In this document: piece by piece, positions 41,013-62,979 of the stretch
Numbering within the stretch: the stretch's first letter is position 1
Layout: the number at the start of each line of letters is the position of its first letter
DNA from: Escherichia phage vB_EcoM_Skers
Length of the DNA stretch: 64,000 bases
Direction: 5' to 3' (one strand)
Sequence record: MW748999.1
Position numbers and translations under genes: made by a program
The notes under the pieces: model-generated
Told to the model about the DNA's origin: nothing
Databases searched by the model: none
What the model saw: the letters and a program-made list of their open reading frames with translations, nothing else

Positions 41013-41648
41013 TCAATCGAATGTAGAAAGCAAATGTTTTGTTTCTTTCAGTTGTCGTTCAAGATCTTTGCGTTTCTCTTTAAGTTGCATTTTAGCATTA
41101 TTTCGCTGTTTTTCAACATCTTTATCAATGCTCTTATTCCAGTTATCAATATCAGAATAAGTTGGCATACCCAATTCTAGACCTAATGCGGTTGGATACA
41201 GGGTAACAGTCCATAAACCGCTAATCTTCTTAAATAGGTCGGGGTGTAGTGTACTATCTACATCTTCCGGTGTCAACTCTTTTTCTTCTTTCAGTGGTGG
41301 GATCTCGTCATATGGTTCCAGTGCATTTACTTTAATATCAGATACCTCATCAAAGAATCCGCGTACATCCGCAGGAAATACACAAGCAATTTCCCAACCG
41401 TGATCACGCAGAGAAGTAATATTTTTCACTCCCCCACCATGTGTGATGATTGATGTGACATTGCCATCAAGGTCCACCGAATTTACGAGAAATGGCTTAT
41501 CGTCTGTCAGATCATTATAAAACTGTGCTTCGGCTGTAGTCATCTCCAGAAACAGATCTCGGATCGGACGACCATCAGGTGCGTTACCTTCCTTGAGAGT
41601 ATAAAAGCGACTTACGATCCATTTTGGCGGTAAAGCATTAGCGATCAT
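41013..41648 (-). CDS. hypothetical protein (211 aa)
   Basis: ORF track. Confidence 0.5.
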   Translation of the reverse strand: MIANALPPKWIVSRFYTLKEGNAPDGRPIRDLFLEMTTAEAQFYNDLTDDKPFLVNSVDLDGNVTSIITHGGGVKNITSLRDHGWEIACVFPADVRGFFDEVSDIKVNALEPYDEIPPLKEEKELTPEDVDSTLHPDLFKKISGLWTVTLYPTALGLELGMPTYSDIDNWNKSIDKDVEKQRNNAKMQLKEKRKDLERQLKETKHLLSTFD

Positions 41649-56564: not shown

Positions 56565-58034
56565 CTATTCCCCATTACCATTATACTTTCTTTGTTTAGT
56601 TATCCACACTCTAACCATCTCTACTGATTCACCGTCAGACGGGTCAAGAGTTTTTCCCTTTTTCTTCATGCGGTACTTAAATCCGTTAAATCTTGCATTC
56701 TCTTGTTCGTTAAAGTCGAACATCTTTTTAAATGATTTTCGCCCTTTACGCTCACCACATTCTAGCGGAATCATTCGGTCTGTTATTACATTGGCATTAG
56801 GTAGAAACGTTTTTAGATAATCGACCAACGCCCAATCAGGAACATATAGATTAACATTCTCCTTGCTCTCGTTGTCTCTCAGGTTACAACGCAAACATAA
56901 TTGAAATGCTGGTTCCAGATAATCAGACACATGACGCGCTTTCAAAAACTCGTTTGTTGGGAGATCGCAACTATTAGCAAGACCTTTTAAAATATCAATC
57001 TCCCATCGTTGAGGGTTAAAGCTGAACATCACAGCAACATTTTTATGATGAATGTAAGAGTTAAGACCATAAGATCCGTAAGGTATCCGCTCACCAATAC
57101 CATTTGTACACGCTTCACGGTCCCGATTCACGGTATAAATGAAGTCATCGCCACATTCATTTTTAACCATATCAACAAGACGTTCAAAGGTATTGTTTGT
57201 TTCTGACTGGTGACGAGACCATCGTTCGGAGTCCGTCATAAGGATGATGTTAACTCTATCTGTATTTTTATACTCTTTGAAATATAGTCTGGATTCTAGC
57301 GCACTCGGAACAAAATCGCAATTTGCATAGTATCGTAGATACTTCCCACTATATGTATCAAAGAGATTTGCACATGCTATCGTAACCTTTTTAAAGTCTC
57401 CCCACGTACCGTGTTTGTTATCGTTCAAGAAAACAATTTTCGACCCATTCTTCCGGTGTCCTTCGTTATGTTTTACCATAACGTTGATTTTCTTCTCTAA
57501 TAACGCCTCATAAAGCCCTCTAAGAGAAGAATCGATCATATCAGTACCATCCTTTGCACTTTCTATCTTTTCTTTGATAGCGGCCTTCTCAGAGTCTTTT
57601 AGAACTAAGTTCTGTAGGCATTCCGATTCGTCGGCGATTGGTTCGCAATGCTTCGTGATAAGTTCAAGATTAGACTTAAACGGATACTCATTAAATTCAA
57701 CCAGTTGAGGAACTTCATCAATATAAAGAGCATATTCACTAAACATTTTTGAACGTTCCATATTAGATAACGCTGTATGTGTGATGAATATCACATCAGC
57801 ACCATCTTTAACTGATTGCATTATCGACGCTTGCACTGTCTTAAGGCTTCTTAGTCTGGTGCTATCAATCAAGACAGCACGACCGCCCATTCTTTTAAAC
57901 TTATTGTAAGATTGTTCACTTAAAACACGAGATGGCGAAGCAATAACCGCTTTTTCTTTTGTCTCTAGGACGTGGGAAAGTATAGCATCCGTTTTCCCCG
58001 CCGCTGGCAATGCGATTAATGTTTCAATCTTCAT
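56565..58034 (-). CDS. P-loop NTPase of unknown function (489 aa)
   Basis: N-terminal Walker A ALPAAGKT and Walker B-like LYIDEVPQ; Lys/Arg-rich C-terminal tail; no confident family assignment. Confidence 0.5.
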   Translation of the reverse strand: MKIETLIALPAAGKTDAILSHVLETKEKAVIASPSRVLSEQSYNKFKRMGGRAVLIDSTRLRSLKTVQASIMQSVKDGADVIFITHTALSNMERSKMFSEYALYIDEVPQLVEFNEYPFKSNLELITKHCEPIADESECLQNLVLKDSEKAAIKEKIESAKDGTDMIDSSLRGLYEALLEKKINVMVKHNEGHRKNGSKIVFLNDNKHGTWGDFKKVTIACANLFDTYSGKYLRYYANCDFVPSALESRLYFKEYKNTDRVNIILMTDSERWSRHQSETNNTFERLVDMVKNECGDDFIYTVNRDREACTNGIGERIPYGSYGLNSYIHHKNVAVMFSFNPQRWEIDILKGLANSCDLPTNEFLKARHVSDYLEPAFQLCLRCNLRDNESKENVNLYVPDWALVDYLKTFLPNANVITDRMIPLECGERKGRKSFKKMFDFNEQENARFNGFKYRMKKKGKTLDPSDGESVEMVRVWITKQRKYNGNGE

Positions 58035-58339: not shown

Positions 58340-58490
58340 GAATTACTTAATGATACTTACTTTACCAGATCCGTGACAATGAGCACAACACCCATCACCA
58401 CGCAATCCTGTTCCGTTACAGTGTTTACACTTCTTCAACGGTAAAGTCATTATAGCAAATAAAGCAATAATGAACACCGAAACTAAATTC

Positions 58491-58760
58491 TCAATAATCA
58501 TAAATCGCCCTCAGTTCTTTATAGCCTCCAATGTGCTCGTTGTCAATGAATATCTGGGGGTATACAAACCGGAGGCTCTTTGAGTTCAGCCTCCCCGCCA
58601 GTTCTTCAATCATATCACGGTCGGGAATAATGTCAACCCCGACCTGCTTGAATACTGGTTTAAGTGTATACGGAATACCCAGATCATCCAGTAGCTTCAT
58701 TGCACTAATACAACCATAACAATGATAAGCCTCTTTCGGTATACCGTATATCTCGATCAT
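58491..58760 (-). CDS. nrdH: glutaredoxin-like protein NrdH
   Basis: 89 aa with CYGC redox motif in a glutaredoxin-like context (IEIYGIPKEAYHCYGCISAMKLLD). Confidence 0.75.
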   Translation of the reverse strand: MIEIYGIPKEAYHCYGCISAMKLLDDLGIPYTLKPVFKQVGVDIIPDRDMIEELAGRLNSKSLRFVYPQIFIDNEHIGGYKELRAIYDY

Positions 58761-59257
58761 TTCTCAGCCTTTAATCTTTCTAGTTCTTCTTCCAGTTCCT
58801 TGATCCGTTGGTCACGTTCAAAGTCACGCTGTATCTTAGTGGCGAATACTCGTTTAAACTGATTGTAATCATCGATTTTAAACACTTCTTCTTCGCCATA
58901 GCGACGCACAGAAACTTCGTAGTTATTGAAGAATTGTTGCATCATTGCTTCGGATGATAGCTCTGCTGATACCACTTTAAAATATTGATCTTCGGTAGGT
59001 GAAAACCAATTACAAGCATAAAGATAAACCTTTTCATTGTCTGGACACTGGTAAGCCTTACCATCGATTTCAATCACAGAAACATATTCAGGTATACTAG
59101 ATGAATCAATAGCTAAGACTTTAAACGCACGGTCCCCGATAAACTCGGAGATCACACGATTCGCATCACTGGTTGCAAATGCTTTACGCGCTTGTTCGTT
59201 TTTCCACTGATAGGTCATACCAACAACAAACATATTACCAACCTCGCTCTTTACCAA
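58757..59257 (-). CDS. paralogous family member P4 (WExGKTY module plus coiled-coil tail)
   Basis: MTYQWKNEQARKAF...AFKVLAID...VIEIDGKAY...NWFSPTEDQYFKVV; C-terminal IKELEEELERLKAEK. Confidence 0.55.
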   Translation of the reverse strand: MVKSEVGNMFVVGMTYQWKNEQARKAFATSDANRVISEFIGDRAFKVLAIDSSSIPEYVSVIEIDGKAYQCPDNEKVYLYACNWFSPTEDQYFKVVSAELSSEAMMQQFFNNYEVSVRRYGEEEVFKIDDYNQFKRVFATKIQRDFERDQRIKELEEELERLKAEK

Positions 59258-60059
59258 TCAAAAATTCAACTTCACGACGTTTAATGTCTTCTTGAAGGTC
59301 TTTAATCTTCTGGCGATCTTGCATTATTTCATCCATCTTGTCAAGTGCCGCAATGAAATCATCGAAACGTTCAAAGGTTTTACCTTCATTTGCTTCGCCA
59401 AATTTAACCATTGTCAGGCCATAACGACTACTAAAAAGACGCTTCAACTGTCCAACGATCTTAGAATCAGTGGTTATAACTTCCAATTCTTCTACTTCTT
59501 GAAAGAATTTTCTATCAGAATCAATAAACCAGCTAGTTCCTTTATGGTCGCTATCTTCTGTTGCACTCATTAGAGTATGGTCTTTACCATCAATTTCAAT
59601 TACATTAACTTGCCCACATAGACTAACATTTTTAACAGTAAAAGGTCTATAATTTATTGCTCGTGCAATAACATAATTAAGGTTAGATACGTTTTCAGCA
59701 TAATGACAGAAGTCGGTCATAGCATTCGCATCTTTCCAAGTATAAGTTTTACCAACTTCCCATTTCTGGGGAACTTCTTCAACTTCACGAAAGAATTTTC
59801 GATCGAATGGACTAAAGAAATATGTTGCAGTCCAAATGTCTTTTCCTGTAGCAGTTTTCGCCGTATGATAAACACCGTCTAGCTCTATTGCATTAATCCA
59901 ACCGTTACCCTCGATCTCGATGATGGTAAATGGCTTGTCACCAATAGCTGCACTAATATCGCTGTTAAGTGGAGAAAGAACACCTTCTCCGTTAGTAATA
60001 AACTCAGTTTTAGCGTTTTCATCTTTCCAAGTGTAAGTTTTACCAATTTCCCATTTCAT
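59235..60059 (-). CDS. paralogous family member P3 (two tandem WExGKTY modules)
   Basis: MKWEIGKTYTWKDENAKTEF... and internal QKWEVGKTYTWKDANAMTDF...; each followed by RPF.V, IEIDG and DRKFF.EVEE. Confidence 0.55.
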   Translation of the reverse strand: MKWEIGKTYTWKDENAKTEFITNGEGVLSPLNSDISAAIGDKPFTIIEIEGNGWINAIELDGVYHTAKTATGKDIWTATYFFSPFDRKFFREVEEVPQKWEVGKTYTWKDANAMTDFCHYAENVSNLNYVIARAINYRPFTVKNVSLCGQVNVIEIDGKDHTLMSATEDSDHKGTSWFIDSDRKFFQEVEELEVITTDSKIVGQLKRLFSSRYGLTMVKFGEANEGKTFERFDDFIAALDKMDEIMQDRQKIKDLQEDIKRREVEFLIGKERGW

Positions 60060-60071
60060 AATATATTCCCC

Positions 60072-60551
60072 TTAACCGATTTTATCAAGTTCGTTTAATG
60101 CTTTCTCTGCTTCCTGTATAGCTTGCACCCTTTCCGGCATTTTGTCAAGAAAATCTTTCAACTCTTCAAAACTGGAGATATGACGCAAGGCGTTAGCACC
60201 GATAGCTGCATGTGATTTGCATTCAAAGCGGATTTTATAATTATCCATAGCCAGCTTGAGTAGGTCCATTAGTTTAGATTCTTCTGGAATACTAATTTCT
60301 TCAAATCTGCTACGGTCGTGATCCAGAAACCAACAATATAGACCTACATCGGTTGAACTCATATAAGTTCCATCATGAAGATATACAGATCGCACGTATC
60401 CTTTTTTCGCATCAACCGACGCAACTTTAAACGGTAATCGCAGATATTTCAAATAATCAACATCATACCATTTAAAAAATTGGTTTGCATCTTTTACATC
60501 TTTCCATACATAGGTCTTACCAGCTTCCCATTTCATAATATCATCTCTCAT
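60072..60551 (-). CDS. paralogous family member P2
   Basis: MKWEAGKTYVWKDVKDANQFF...LPFKVASVD...FLDHDRSRFEEI; helical C-terminus. Confidence 0.55.
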   Translation of the reverse strand: MRDDIMKWEAGKTYVWKDVKDANQFFKWYDVDYLKYLRLPFKVASVDAKKGYVRSVYLHDGTYMSSTDVGLYCWFLDHDRSRFEEISIPEESKLMDLLKLAMDNYKIRFECKSHAAIGANALRHISSFEELKDFLDKMPERVQAIQEAEKALNELDKIG

Positions 60552-61077
60552 TTTTGATACGTGATTCTAATTGGATCATACGGTCGCGCGTTTGTTTGTA
60601 TTCTCGGATAGCACCGATCCGGCTAGGCATACCATCCAGTACGCTCTTAATACCTTCTAGGGTAGTAATTTTGGCAATGCTATTATGTAACCCCATCTTA
60701 TCGATCAACTGAATGTCGTAGGCTTCCATAAGCAGACCCAGGCGTTCTAAAGTTAGGTCTTCTTCTTTTTCTTCTGAATCTGGAATCTTAGGTTCAATAG
60801 TAACTTCGGTAAAGAAACGACGCTCACCCGACCAAAACCACACACCAGAACAACCAATAGGGGATTCTTTTAACGTCATAGAGTCGAAATCACTACCAAT
60901 AATAGTAATTTCTCTAACATCACCATCATCGTCAAGGTCTTCTACCCTAAACGGGCGACCAGCCAACAAGTCAACAATACATCTGTTAATAAACGACGAA
61001 AATTTAGTCAGTTCGGCTTTCGACGCTTCGCATTCGATCTTGTAAGTTTTACCAACTTCCCATTCCATAATAATCAC
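60541..61077 (-). CDS. paralogous family member P1
   Basis: MEWEVGKTYKIECEASKAEL...RPFRVEDL...WFWSGERRFFTEV; helical C-terminus. Confidence 0.55.
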   Translation of the reverse strand: MIIMEWEVGKTYKIECEASKAELTKFSSFINRCIVDLLAGRPFRVEDLDDDGDVREITIIGSDFDSMTLKESPIGCSGVWFWSGERRFFTEVTIEPKIPDSEEKEEDLTLERLGLLMEAYDIQLIDKMGLHNSIAKITTLEGIKSVLDGMPSRIGAIREYKQTRDRMIQLESRIKNER

Positions 61078-61078
61078 C

Positions 61079-61582
61079 TCAAATAATTTTCACTGGAATA
61101 CTATTAACAATCTTGTATTGTACTTGATTGTCAGATCCCCGCCACGGCTTCTTCGTTGGCATATCTTTAATATAACGCCCATCGATGAACATGTCAACTG
61201 ATTCTACAATTTTTCTTTGCTCATCATTCAATTGGTCAAGGGTATAACCAGACCATAGCCAAATATCTTTATTTGGCATCCATGATTTTACTTCATCGAT
61301 GATCCGCTGTACACCCTTTAAATTGCGTTTATACAATGGATCGCCACCTAAGAATGTTAGCCCCTGAATAAAATCAGGTCTAAGCAGATCCAGAATCAAT
61401 CCCATTGTATCATCGGTGAATGGTTCCCCGTTCTTAGGATTGAGTAGACTGGAATTAAAGCAACCATCACATGCGTGTGAACATCCGGTAACGTAAAGGG
61501 AGACTCTCACTCCCTCACCGTTAACCATATCACAATCTTTAATATCGGCATAGCGTAGTTTGCCGTATGTATCAGAACTCAT
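61079..61582 (-). CDS. nrdG: anaerobic ribonucleotide reductase activating protein NrdG (radical SAM)
   Basis: Radical-SAM cluster motif CSHACDGC; track ORF 61079..61588 starts at TTG, ATG at 61582. Confidence 0.8.
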   Translation of the reverse strand: MSSDTYGKLRYADIKDCDMVNGEGVRVSLYVTGCSHACDGCFNSSLLNPKNGEPFTDDTMGLILDLLRPDFIQGLTFLGGDPLYKRNLKGVQRIIDEVKSWMPNKDIWLWSGYTLDQLNDEQRKIVESVDMFIDGRYIKDMPTKKPWRGSDNQVQYKIVNSIPVKII

Positions 61583-61724
61583 ATTCAATTACCCCGAACT
61601 CGTTTACAATCTGCGCTTTATAGTAACCACCGCGAGATGCTAATAGATAAGCTGGGCTTAGGTATTCGTATTCACGGATTTCTACTTGTGCGTTTTCAGT
61701 TTCCCAAATCAGTAAAGTCCACAT
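61572..61724 (-). CDS. hypothetical small protein (50 aa)
   Basis: Track ORF 61572..61799 runs through the promoter; ATG 61724 (MWTLLIWE) with SD AGGAG. Confidence 0.4.
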   Translation of the reverse strand: MWTLLIWETENAQVEIREYEYLSPAYLLASRGGYYKAQIVNEFGVIEYEF

Positions 61725-61766
61725 ATTTGATTCTCCTGTAAAGTTGTATCTCGTCTTGATGAATAT

Positions 61767-61795
61767 AGTATAGGGGATCTCGCGATCCCCGTCAA
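61767..61795 (-). promoter_or_regulatory. PeSL-like early promoter
   Basis: Minus strand TTGACG-GGGATCGCGAGATCCCC-TATACT; palindromic 17-nt spacer. Confidence 0.65.
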
Positions 61796-61799
61796 GCAT

Positions 61800-62344: not shown

Positions 62345-62884
62345 TCAAAGATCGCGATATTGTACATTATGAAAATGAGAACTTGCATTACCAATATTGT
62401 AGATAACAAATTCTTCATCCGGCGCTTGCGCTACAAATTGAGTATGAGCAACCGCTACGACTTTAAAAATACGATCCGTGATCTTGTGTTTAATTTCGAC
62501 TCCTACTTCCATAGGAACATATTCATGTGTTTCTGTTTCAGTCGCAAAACAGCCATCTTCTTCATAAGCACGAACAAATCGATCGCAATCAGTACGCTTA
62601 ACAAATTCAAGAGTATACAATTCTCGTGAATTGTCGGTATAGACCAATACAGAATTATTATGATAGCGAATCACATACAGGTTATTATCATCGTCAATTA
62701 CGCAAAAGCTACGGATTCCTTCGCCTTGACTCCAGCAGATATTAACCACCGTTCCTCTAATAAAAAAACTTTCCTTTAAATTAAAACTAGTCAATGTGCT
62801 AGCGTGCATTTTAACAACAACACCATCGCCAATTTCCAGTTTACGAAGTTTAACTTCTTTGCTCAGTACACAAAACATCATCAT
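62345..62884 (-). CDS. hypothetical protein (179 aa)
   Basis: ORF track; SD GAGAGGA; preceded by the promoter-leader cassette. Confidence 0.5.
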   Translation of the reverse strand: MMMFCVLSKEVKLRKLEIGDGVVVKMHASTLTSFNLKESFFIRGTVVNICWSQGEGIRSFCVIDDDNNLYVIRYHNNSVLVYTDNSRELYTLEFVKRTDCDRFVRAYEEDGCFATETETHEYVPMEVGVEIKHKITDRIFKVVAVAHTQFVAQAPDEEFVIYNIGNASSHFHNVQYRDL

Positions 62885-62913: not shown

Positions 62914-62941
62914 ATTATACATTAGCTAATCAGGTTGTCAA
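62914..62941 (-). promoter_or_regulatory. early promoter TTGACA-N16-TATAAT with the ACATCGAAAACAA leader (third copy of the cassette)
   Basis: Minus strand TTGACAACCTGATTAGCTAATGTATAATGTTCACATCGAAAACAACGAGAGGACAACATG. Confidence 0.65.
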
Positions 62942-62946
62942 CACCT

Positions 62947-62979
62947 AAAAACGAAAAAGCCGACCCTTTCGGATCGGCT
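62947..62979 (-). terminator. rho-independent terminator downstream of nrdD
   Basis: Minus-strand RNA AGCCGAUCCGAAAGGGUCGGCU followed by UUUUUCGUUUUU. Confidence 0.7.

What the first reader, a model, noticed from the sequence alone, without database searches (positions are those of the whole stretch)
58757..61077. Tandem array of four diverged paralogs (five WExGKTY modules) between nrdH and nrdG
Four consecutive minus-strand genes share a roughly 95-aa N-terminal module (W-E-x-G-K-T-Y-x-W-K-D ... RPF-x-V ... IEIDG ... W-F ... DR-x-FF-x-EV) and a helical, coiled-coil-like C-terminal tail. The 274-aa member has the module twice. The copies are only about 30-40% identical to each other, which is the signature of a fast-evolving family. 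The array breaks the nrdD-nrdG-nrdH synteny that I recall as compact in T4.
Basis: seen in the sequence. Interest (0 to 1): 0.55.

Follow-up and report, generated by a model that had tools for sequence, protein, structure and literature searches.

The report
Tandem GoF-family paralogs in RB49-like phage
Four neighbouring genes of an RB49-like coliphage are diverged copies of the phage T4 goF family, whose normal function is unknown. Each has a small barrel-shaped front domain that closely related phages swap like a cassette, joined to a tail that stays nearly constant.

Summary
The window is a Krischvirus (RB49-like, 98% identical). Four tightly packed minus-strand genes (RB49p048-051) lie between nrdH and nrdG. 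Together they carry five significantly related N-terminal modules of about 90 aa.

A profile built from the five window modules alone finds T4 GoF. PHROG profiles link the genes to 'goF mRNA metabolism modulator' families. [quoted passage not shown] 2025).

RB49-type genomes hold nine such genes with twelve modules. They lack goF at its T4 position.

The apparently new point concerns variation between related Krischviruses. The N-terminal modules fall into discrete alleles of 37-60% identity with saturated synonymous divergence. The C-terminal tails and flanking genes stay at 88-100%. dN/dS is 0.2-0.4. This indicates cassette replacement by recombination, not rapid in-place evolution. The 274-aa gene also gains and loses modules.

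Function is inferred only. The most likely role is an early accessory protein with a variable recognition domain on a constant tail, acting on host RNA-metabolism or defence factors.

Verdict: new member of a known but poorly understood family; moderate interest.

The parts
60541..61068 (-). Gene D (175 aa, = RB49p051): GoF-like N-terminal module, acidic linker and helical tail
60793..61068 (-). N-terminal module of D (aa 1-92)
   Evidence: HMM domain. Two allele classes exist among Krischviruses. It is 48% identical to the L013 allele with dS 1.65, while the tail is 96% identical.
60072..60536 (-). Gene C (154 aa, = RB49p050)
   Evidence: phrog_5347 E 9e-59. Its tail is homologous to the D tail.
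60285..60536 (-). N-terminal module of C (aa 1-84); the only basic module (pI 7.8)
   Evidence: It is 51% identical to the L013 allele, against 96% for the tail.
59235..60059 (-). Gene B (274 aa, = RB49p049): two tandem modules and one tail
   Evidence: Two HMM domains; phrog_5347 E 2e-91 with 2 stretches. AlphaFold gives both modules pLDDT 80-89 with the same order of secondary-structure elements.
59772..60059 (-). Module B1 (aa 1-96)
   Evidence: It is the only module present in the 184-aa B ortholog of L013.
59484..59771 (-). Module B2 (aa 97-192), the most polymorphic module
   Evidence: Two discrete allele classes, 29 versus 12 modules in the clustering, under 55% identical to each other. 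Against phage JK32, nucleotide identity falls to 38-45% only across about 59480-59740, inside an otherwise 90-100% identical region. A B2-only single-module protein also exists (P0160).
58757..59233 (-). Gene A (158 aa, = RB49p048); its start lies 1 nt after the stop of B
   Evidence: phrog_5347 E 3e-60.
58961..59233 (-). N-terminal module of A (aa 1-91), with a degenerate start motif MFVVGMTYQWKN
   Evidence: It is 60% identical to the L013 allele, against 88% for the tail.
61169..61197 (-). Sigma-70-like promoter match (TTGACA-17-TATATT) inside the 3' end of nrdG, about 100 nt upstream of D; a candidate early promoter for the array
   Evidence: Consensus scan only; function not shown.
41013..41648 (-). 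Dc2 (211 aa): a further GoF-family paralog in the window, immediately downstream of helicase gene 41
   Evidence: Five-module HMM E 2e-6; jackhmmer E 5e-26; ORF; BFVD structural hit 'Dc2'.
61079..61582 (-). nrdG, the upstream flank (anaerobic RNR activase); 99% conserved in the phages whose array modules differ
58491..58760 (-). nrdH, the downstream flank (glutaredoxin)

Best explanation
**What it is.** The four genes are a lineage-specific tandem expansion of the T4 GoF (ComC-alpha) / Frd.2 / MotB.1 family in Krischvirus phages. Each protein has one or two N-terminal small beta-barrel modules of about 90 aa. The barrel has an SH3/FeoA-like ('LSm-like') fold with a two-helix insert after strand 1. 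An acidic linker follows, then a helical C-terminal tail.

**Shown.**
- Membership of the family.
- The predicted fold.
- Nine genes and twelve modules per RB49-type genome.
- Among closely related phages the N-terminal modules exist as discrete, deeply diverged alleles. These are exchanged or lost by recombination at the conserved module edges. The tails and neighbouring genes stay nearly identical.

**Inferred.**
- The barrel is a recognition domain for a polymorphic partner.
- The constant tail provides self-association or docking.
- The proteins are made before replication starts.
- They act as non-essential host-takeover factors that bind host proteins of RNA metabolism. T4 goF interacts genetically with Rho, and a goF mutant protein stabilises mRNA.
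- Protein binding is more likely than direct RNA binding, because most modules are acidic.
For: **Identity of the window.** It is 98% identical to RB49.

**Family membership.**
- All four genes match phrog_5347 at E 1e-59 to 1e-91. Weaker hits go to goF-annotated PHROGs 13003, 2980 and 8944.
- A profile of the five window modules alone finds T4 GoF residues 4-91 at E 2e-7.
- jackhmmer converges on 8 genes in the window plus RB49, together with T4 GoF.
- A profile that contains no sequence from the second array finds RB49p058, p060, p059 and p057 at E 1e-14 to 8e-4.

**Fold.**
- N-terminal domains have pLDDT 80-92.

**Variable head, constant tail.**
- Against the metagenomic Krischvirus L013, the N-terminal domains of D, C and A are 48, 51 and 60% identical (dS 1.0-1.65). 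Their tails are 96, 96 and 88% identical (dS 0.38-0.54). nrdG is 99% identical.
- Against JK32, only the interior of B2 is replaced.
- Over all clusters of relatives retrieved, mean pairwise identity is 71-77% for the A, D and B2 modules and 89% for B1, against 92-97.5% for the tails.
- Allele classes are discrete.
- dN/dS of 0.23-0.39, intact ORFs in 58 genomes and confident folds all indicate functional proteins.

**Recombination substrates.** A conserved 69-nt block sits at the 5' end of four modules. A 30-nt block sits at the 3' end of B1 and B2.

**Link to GoF genetics.** At the position of the T4 GoF suppressor mutation G84R, 167 of 173 Krischvirus modules have K or R. T4-type GoF proteins have E or G there.

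**Protein binding rather than RNA binding.** Module pI is 4.5-5.0 for five of six. Wild-type T4 GoF does not stabilise RNA (PMC12152347).
Against: - No experiment or characterised homolog shows what any wild-type family member does. [quoted passage not shown]
- Early expression rests only on a consensus promoter match and on analogy with T4.
- Self-association through the tail is not shown. Tail pLDDT is 54-76 and heptad periodicity is weak.
- The Krischvirus tails show no detectable similarity to the T4 GoF or Frd.2 C-terminal domains. Function may therefore differ from T4 GoF.
- Variable-head, constant-tail mosaicism could partly reflect where recombination is mechanically easy, rather than selection on a partner.
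Confidence: 0.55

Rival explanations
1. The modules are true LSm/Hfq-like RNA binders. The paralogs would be a set of phage RNA chaperones or protectors, each stabilising a subset of phage mRNAs, in the way T4 GoF(D25Y) stabilises gene 41 mRNA.
For: - They are homologous to GoF, and the D25Y mutant raises mRNA half-life post-transcriptionally (PMC12152347).
- The second suppressor mutation, G84R, creates the basic residue that is standard in Krischvirus modules. The motif is R-[KR]-F-F there, against A-[GE]-F-F in T4-type GoF.
- MAFFT aligns GoF D25 with an aromatic residue in B2, C and D.
- Paralog Dc2 lies next to gene 41.
Against: - Five of six window modules are acidic, with net charge -4 to -8.
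- Wild-type GoF and MotB.1 have little effect on RNA, and D25Y is interpreted as a gain of function.
- The D25 equivalence depends on the alignment: hmmalign puts a gap there.
- There is no Pfam LSM or Hfq hit.
Confidence: 0.2
2. The array is a counter-defence repertoire. The variable barrels would act as decoys or inhibitors for polymorphic host immunity proteins. Allele swapping and paralog expansion would then be the phage side of an arms race.
For: - Discrete, deeply diverged alleles are maintained in otherwise near-identical genomes. Module copy number varies, and there are nine paralogs.
- The proteins are small, acidic and, by analogy with T4, non-essential.
- They lie in accessory DNA next to other hypervariable genes, the RB49p055 and RB49p044 orthologs.
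Against: - There is no similarity to any characterised anti-defence protein.
- The PADLOC scan, which covers host defence systems only, gave one chance-level hit (CARF_PIN, E 0.003, 14.7 bits).
- No host-range or defence data exist.
- dN/dS is below 1 throughout.
- This rival overlaps the best explanation and differs from it only in the identity of the partner.
Confidence: 0.2
3. The modules are FeoA-like domains with a role in iron or metal handling, serving the iron-sulfur anaerobic ribonucleotide reductase genes that the two arrays flank.
For: - FeoA is the best structural match.
- The arrays lie on both sides of the nrdD...nrdG block.
Against: - There is no sequence match to FeoA in Pfam.
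- The invariant residues are Y, F, F and G, with no conserved His or Cys ligands.
- The 2025 paper notes that GoF lacks the metal-binding histidines.
Confidence: 0.03
4. The similarity is chance, or the ORFs are decaying duplicates that are not expressed.
For: None beyond the lack of Pfam and NCBIfam hits.
Against: - Strong PHROG matches.
- The four-gene array was seen intact in every relative examined gene by gene: RB49, JK32 and the metagenomic contig L013. All 58 Krischvirus records in the phage collection carry the module.
- dN/dS of 0.2-0.4.
- Confident folds.
Confidence: 0.01

Closest known systems
T4 GoF (ComC-alpha, NP_049624, 141 aa)
   Same: - The N-terminal module is homologous over about 90 aa.
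- The layout is the same: barrel, acidic linker, then a short C-terminal domain.
- The fold class is the same. FeoA is the best PDB neighbour here, as published for GoF.
   Different: - The Krischvirus C-terminal tails are longer, end in a long charged helix, and show no detectable similarity to the GoF C-terminal domain.
- Krischvirus has no goF gene at the T4 position between gene 39 and dexA.
- It has nine paralogs in three loci, some with 2-3 modules per protein.
- The residue at the G84 position is basic rather than E or G.
T4 Frd.2 and MotB.1 (the other two members of the 2025 'LSm-like fold' family)
   Same: Small early proteins with an N-terminal barrel followed by a linker and a C-terminal domain. 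Their function is also unknown, and knocking them out gives no phenotype.
   Different: They were not recovered by my sequence profiles at E 1e-3. The original authors also linked them to GoF mainly by deep searches and structure. RB49p058, labelled frd.2/goF in RefSeq, has three modules.
RB49p057-p060 (second array, between nrdD and gene 49) and Dc2
   Same: They carry the same module and the same layout. Two of them are already annotated 'goF mRNA metabolism modulator'. They also diverge between Krischviruses (66-86% identity) while the flanking gp49 is 99% identical.
   Different: They form a separate sequence subfamily. Only C and D share a demonstrably homologous tail. The second array lies outside the window.
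FeoA / SH3-like small beta-barrels (6e55, 7r7b)
   Different: Sequence identity is 8-15% and there is no profile match. The phage modules have a two-helix insert after strand 1. There is no link to iron transport.
Hfq / Sm (LSm) proteins
   Same: They share a five-stranded bent beta-sheet topology, according to PMC12152347.
PeSL-mediated ORFan shuffling in RB49/phi1 (Arbiol et al. 2010, PMC2839356)
   Same: Both involve recombinational replacement of accessory genes in the same phage group.
   Different: PeSL shuffling swaps whole genes at intergenic promoter/stem-loop cassettes. Here the exchanged unit is a domain inside a gene, bounded by conserved coding motifs. No PeSL lies between the array genes.

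Membership tests
GoF / Frd.2 / MotB.1 phage family (PMC12152347) | Significant sequence similarity of the N-terminal domain to GoF | tested here: met
   A profile of the five window modules alone hits T4 GoF residues 4-91 at E 2e-7. goF-annotated PHROGs 13003 and 2980 hit B at about E 1e-9 and A at 6e-6 to 9e-5. C and D reach GoF only through the shared profile.
GoF / Frd.2 / MotB.1 phage family (PMC12152347) | Predicted N-terminal five-stranded antiparallel small beta-barrel, with FeoA-type SH3 folds as nearest PDB neighbours | tested here: met
GoF / Frd.2 / MotB.1 phage family (PMC12152347) | Layout: N-terminal domain, flexible (acidic) linker, then a C-terminal domain of variable structure | tested here: met
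   pLDDT is below 50 at D residues 93-103, which are rich in E, D and K. Helical C-terminal domains follow.
GoF / Frd.2 / MotB.1 phage family (PMC12152347) | Early (prereplicative) expression and high abundance | tested here: inconclusive
   The only evidence is sigma-70 consensus matches upstream, at 61197-61169 and 62941-62914. No transcript data are available.
GoF / Frd.2 / MotB.1 phage family (PMC12152347) | Genetic interaction with host rho alleles, or an effect on mRNA stability | not testable with these tools
   This needs phage genetics or reporter assays.
Hfq / LSm RNA chaperones | Sm1/Sm2 sequence motifs or a Pfam LSM/Hfq profile match | tested here: not met
   No Pfam hit at E up to 0.1.
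Hfq / LSm RNA chaperones | Closest structural neighbours are Sm or Hfq proteins; ring-forming oligomer | tested here: not met
FeoA (PF04023) | Sequence-profile membership | tested here: not met
   No Pfam or NCBIfam hit. A PDB sequence-profile search found nothing.
Known anti-phage defence components (PADLOC) | Profile match to a defence-system protein | tested here: not met
   One chance-level hit only: CARF_PIN, E 0.003, 14.7 bits, for B.

The most novel reading that the evidence does not exclude
The GoF-like barrels are a recombination-driven specificity repertoire. A pool of discrete recognition-domain alleles would be shuffled, by homologous exchange at conserved module edges, onto constant effector or oligomerisation tails. 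This would let Krischviruses retarget a set of early inhibitors to polymorphic host proteins, for example defence sensors or variants of the RNA-decay machinery. Domain-level cassette switching of this kind is well known for tail-fibre adhesins but has not been described for intracellular early proteins of T4-like phages.
Probability: 0.15. Interest if true: 0.7.

Novelty: new member of a known kind. Interest (0 to 1): 0.4.

Why it matters
GoF has been a genetic puzzle since the 1970s. Mutants rescue T4 growth on rho-mutant hosts, yet the wild-type function is unknown, and the family was defined only in 2025.

Krischviruses carry nine paralogs instead of three. They also supply a natural experiment: near-isogenic phages that differ in single barrel alleles, such as B2 in the window phage versus JK32. 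Allele-swap and pull-down experiments on such pairs could show what the barrel recognises. The pattern also indicates which half of the protein is likely to carry specificity (the barrel) and which the constant function (the tail).

If the partners prove to be host defence or RNA-decay proteins, the family would be a new class of modular host-takeover factor. If no partner is found, this remains an ordinary expansion of an accessory gene family in a plastic genome region.

Tried and rejected
- **Pfam, NCBIfam and PADLOC scans of the four proteins.** These gave no meaningful hits. DUF4686 and DUF6674 matches fall below cut-off on the charged tails. CARF_PIN at 14.7 bits was rejected as chance.
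- **PDB sequence-profile search.** It found nothing below E 0.19.
[quoted passage not shown] A single common tail domain for all paralogs is therefore not demonstrated.
- **Equivalence of T4 GoF D25 with an aromatic residue in B2, C and D.** MAFFT shows it but hmmalign does not. I treat it as unreliable and do not use it as evidence.
- **Positive selection.** Pairwise dN/dS is below 0.5 everywhere, so it is rejected in the simple pairwise sense.
- **Iron or FeoA function.** Rejected; see the rival explanations.
- **IMG/VR locus scan with the module profile.** It returned only four loci, because the back-translated pattern was narrow, so it says little about distribution.
- **afdb50 fold library.** It was not available.
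- **Literature.** The HIDEN-SEQ preprint and the PeSL paper say nothing about these genes.
Full report
**What is there.** The window is an RB49-like coliphage of the genus Krischvirus. Region 58400-61700 is 98.3% identical to RB49 and 90-99% identical to 58 phage records.

Four tightly packed minus-strand genes lie between nrdG (61079-61582) and nrdH (58491-58760). With RBS-supported ATG starts that match the RB49 annotation (RB49p048-051), they are A 58757-59233, B 59235-60059, C 60072-60536 and D 60541-61068.

The five N-terminal modules are significantly related. Smith-Waterman z-scores against 500 shuffles are 4.5-42. Identity is 26-41%, and 50% for B1-B2. T4 has only the small ORF 55.8 between nrdH and nrdG.

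**What family it is.** All four proteins match phrog_5347 (unknown function) end to end, at E 1e-59 to 1e-91. Weaker matches go to PHROGs annotated 'goF mRNA metabolism modulator'. Pfam, NCBIfam and PADLOC gave nothing meaningful.

The T4 GoF sequence visibly carries the same module. An HMM built only from the five window modules finds T4 GoF residues 4-91 at E 2e-7.

[quoted passage not shown] Each has an N-terminal five-stranded 'LSm-like' barrel, a flexible linker and a variable C-terminal domain. Its main points are:
- Their closest PDB neighbours were FeoA-type SH3 folds.
- The wild-type function is unknown, and knocking out or deleting the three genes gives no phenotype.
- The mutant GoF(D25Y) stabilises gene 41 mRNA post-transcriptionally.

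The paper does not mention RB49, Krischvirus or tandem arrays.

A profile search of 1.84 billion cluster representatives found only 104 clusters at E up to 1e-3. Several of them carry 2-3 modules. This is a small, phage-restricted family.

**Size of the expansion.** A six-frame HMM census of the complete RB49 genome gives nine genes with twelve modules:
- The four array genes, with five modules.
- A second array, RB49p057-p060, between nrdD and gene 49, with six modules. p058 alone has three. This array lies outside the window.
- Dc2, next to helicase gene 41 (window 41013-41648).

RefSeq already labels p058 and p059 as goF. RB49 lacks goF, motB and motB.1 at the T4 position between gene 39 and dexA. 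Close relatives of the four array genes occur only in Krischvirus-sized contigs.

**How it varies.** This is the part that goes beyond the annotation.

Against phage JK32, every gene from RB49p054 to RB49p044 is 92-100% identical in protein, except B at 77% (RB49p055, just upstream of this stretch, is itself only 60% identical). The difference in B is confined to module B2, which is 45% identical with dS 1.9. Nucleotide identity drops to 38-45% only across about 59480-59740, the interior of B2.

Against a metagenomic Krischvirus contig (L013):
- nrdG, nrdD, gp55 and gp49 are 97-100% identical.
- The N-terminal modules of D, C and A are 48, 51 and 60% identical, with dS 1.0-1.65.
- Their tails are 96, 96 and 88% identical, with dS 0.38-0.54. 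This is close to the flanking nrdG and nrdD genes (dS 0.25-0.41).
- dN/dS is 0.23-0.39 in the modules.

Across all clusters of relatives retrieved, mean pairwise identity is 71-77% for the A, D and B2 modules, with minima of 37-56%. B1 is less variable, at 89%. For the tails it is 92-97.5%.

Modules fall into discrete allele classes rather than a continuum. B2 has two classes, D two, C two and A three.

B exists in three forms: B1+B2, B1 only (L013) and B2 only (P0160). At the DNA level, four modules share a 69-nt block at their 5' ends. B1 and B2 share a 30-nt block at their 3' ends. These are suitable substrates for homologous exchange and unequal crossing-over.

Between alleles, the conserved positions are the barrel core and the terminal motifs. 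Variation concentrates in the two-helix insert and the beta3-beta5 segment.

T4-type GoF orthologs show the same tendency in a milder form: 84% for the N-terminal domain against 95% for the C-terminal domain.

The correct description is therefore domain-level cassette replacement under purifying selection. It is not rapid in-place evolution.

**Mechanism.** The following are shown: family membership, the predicted fold, the architecture, and the pattern of a variable head on a constant tail.

The following are inferred: the barrel is a recognition domain for a polymorphic partner, and the conserved tail provides self-association or docking.

I favour protein binding over direct RNA binding. 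Five of six window modules are acidic, with pI 4.5-5.0. Wild-type T4 GoF does not stabilise RNA.

One robust link to GoF genetics remains. At the position of the second T4 suppressor mutation, G84R, 167 of 173 Krischvirus modules carry K or R. T4-type GoF proteins carry E or G there. The corresponding claim for D25 depends on the alignment method and I do not rely on it.

Early expression is suggested only by sigma-70 consensus matches: one inside the 3' end of nrdG, and one perfect match downstream of nrdD.

The tails are predicted helical. Heptad periodicity is weak, and the tails show no similarity to the T4 GoF or Frd.2 C-terminal domains.

**Rivals.**
- Direct LSm-like RNA binding.
- A counter-defence repertoire, which differs from my best explanation only in what the partner is.
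- An FeoA-like metal role suggested by the nrd context. This is weak: there are no conserved metal ligands, and the T4 homologs lie elsewhere.
- Chance or decaying ORFs, which the data refute.

**Verdict.** The four genes are new members of a known but functionally unresolved phage family. I found no earlier description of the domain-level allele swapping or the nine-gene expansion in the papers searched. The variation gives a practical handle on GoF function. Interest is moderate (0.4).

Noticed in passing
window 62914-62979 (-): A GC-rich stem-loop terminator (AGCCGATCCGAAAGGGTCGGCT followed by a T-run) is directly followed by a perfect TTGACA-16-TATAAT promoter. It sits between nrdD and the next gene. 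It looks like one of the PeSL promoter/stem-loop cassettes described for RB49 and phi1 (PMC2839356), which that paper says are associated with nrdD.
   Followed up: partly
window 62345-62884 (-) and 56565-58034 (-): Two neighbouring genes of unknown function are also hypervariable between Krischviruses. The RB49p055 ortholog is 60% identical to JK32 and 73% to L013. The 489-aa RB49p044 ortholog carries a P-loop-like AAGKT motif and a weak DEAD-helicase Pfam mark. It is 100% identical to JK32 but only 72% to L013, with saturated dS. Adjacent genes are 93-100% identical.
   Followed up: partly
window 41013-41648 (-): Dc2, an RB49 ORF that has a name but no known function, is a GoF-family member. 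It lies immediately downstream of helicase gene 41. Gene 41 is the gene whose mRNA level is affected by the T4 goF(D25Y) mutation.
   Followed up: partly
RB49 NC_005066 3205-5971 (locus L004): RB49 has no goF, cef, motB, motB.1 or motB.2 between gene 39 and dexA, where T4 has them. All of its GoF-family genes sit elsewhere.
   Followed up: yes
RB49 NC_005066 36433-39070 (L001 12494-15131), just beyond the window's right end: A second tandem array of four GoF-family genes (p057-p060, six modules) lies between nrdD and gene 49. The two arrays therefore bracket the anaerobic ribonucleotide reductase block. These genes also diverge (66-86% identity) while gp49 stays at 99%.
   Followed up: partly
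window 61572-61799 (-): The maximal ORF here is 75 aa, but only its last 50 aa match DUF7170 and the annotated RB49p053. The gene's 3' end overlaps the start of nrdG by about 11 nt.
   Followed up: no
proteins P0254, P0262, P0290, P0291, P0313, P0315: Six long proteins (524-5094 aa) hit the module profile through 5-14 short stretches each. They are probably repeat proteins matching the IEIDG-like strand rather than true relatives.
   Followed up: no
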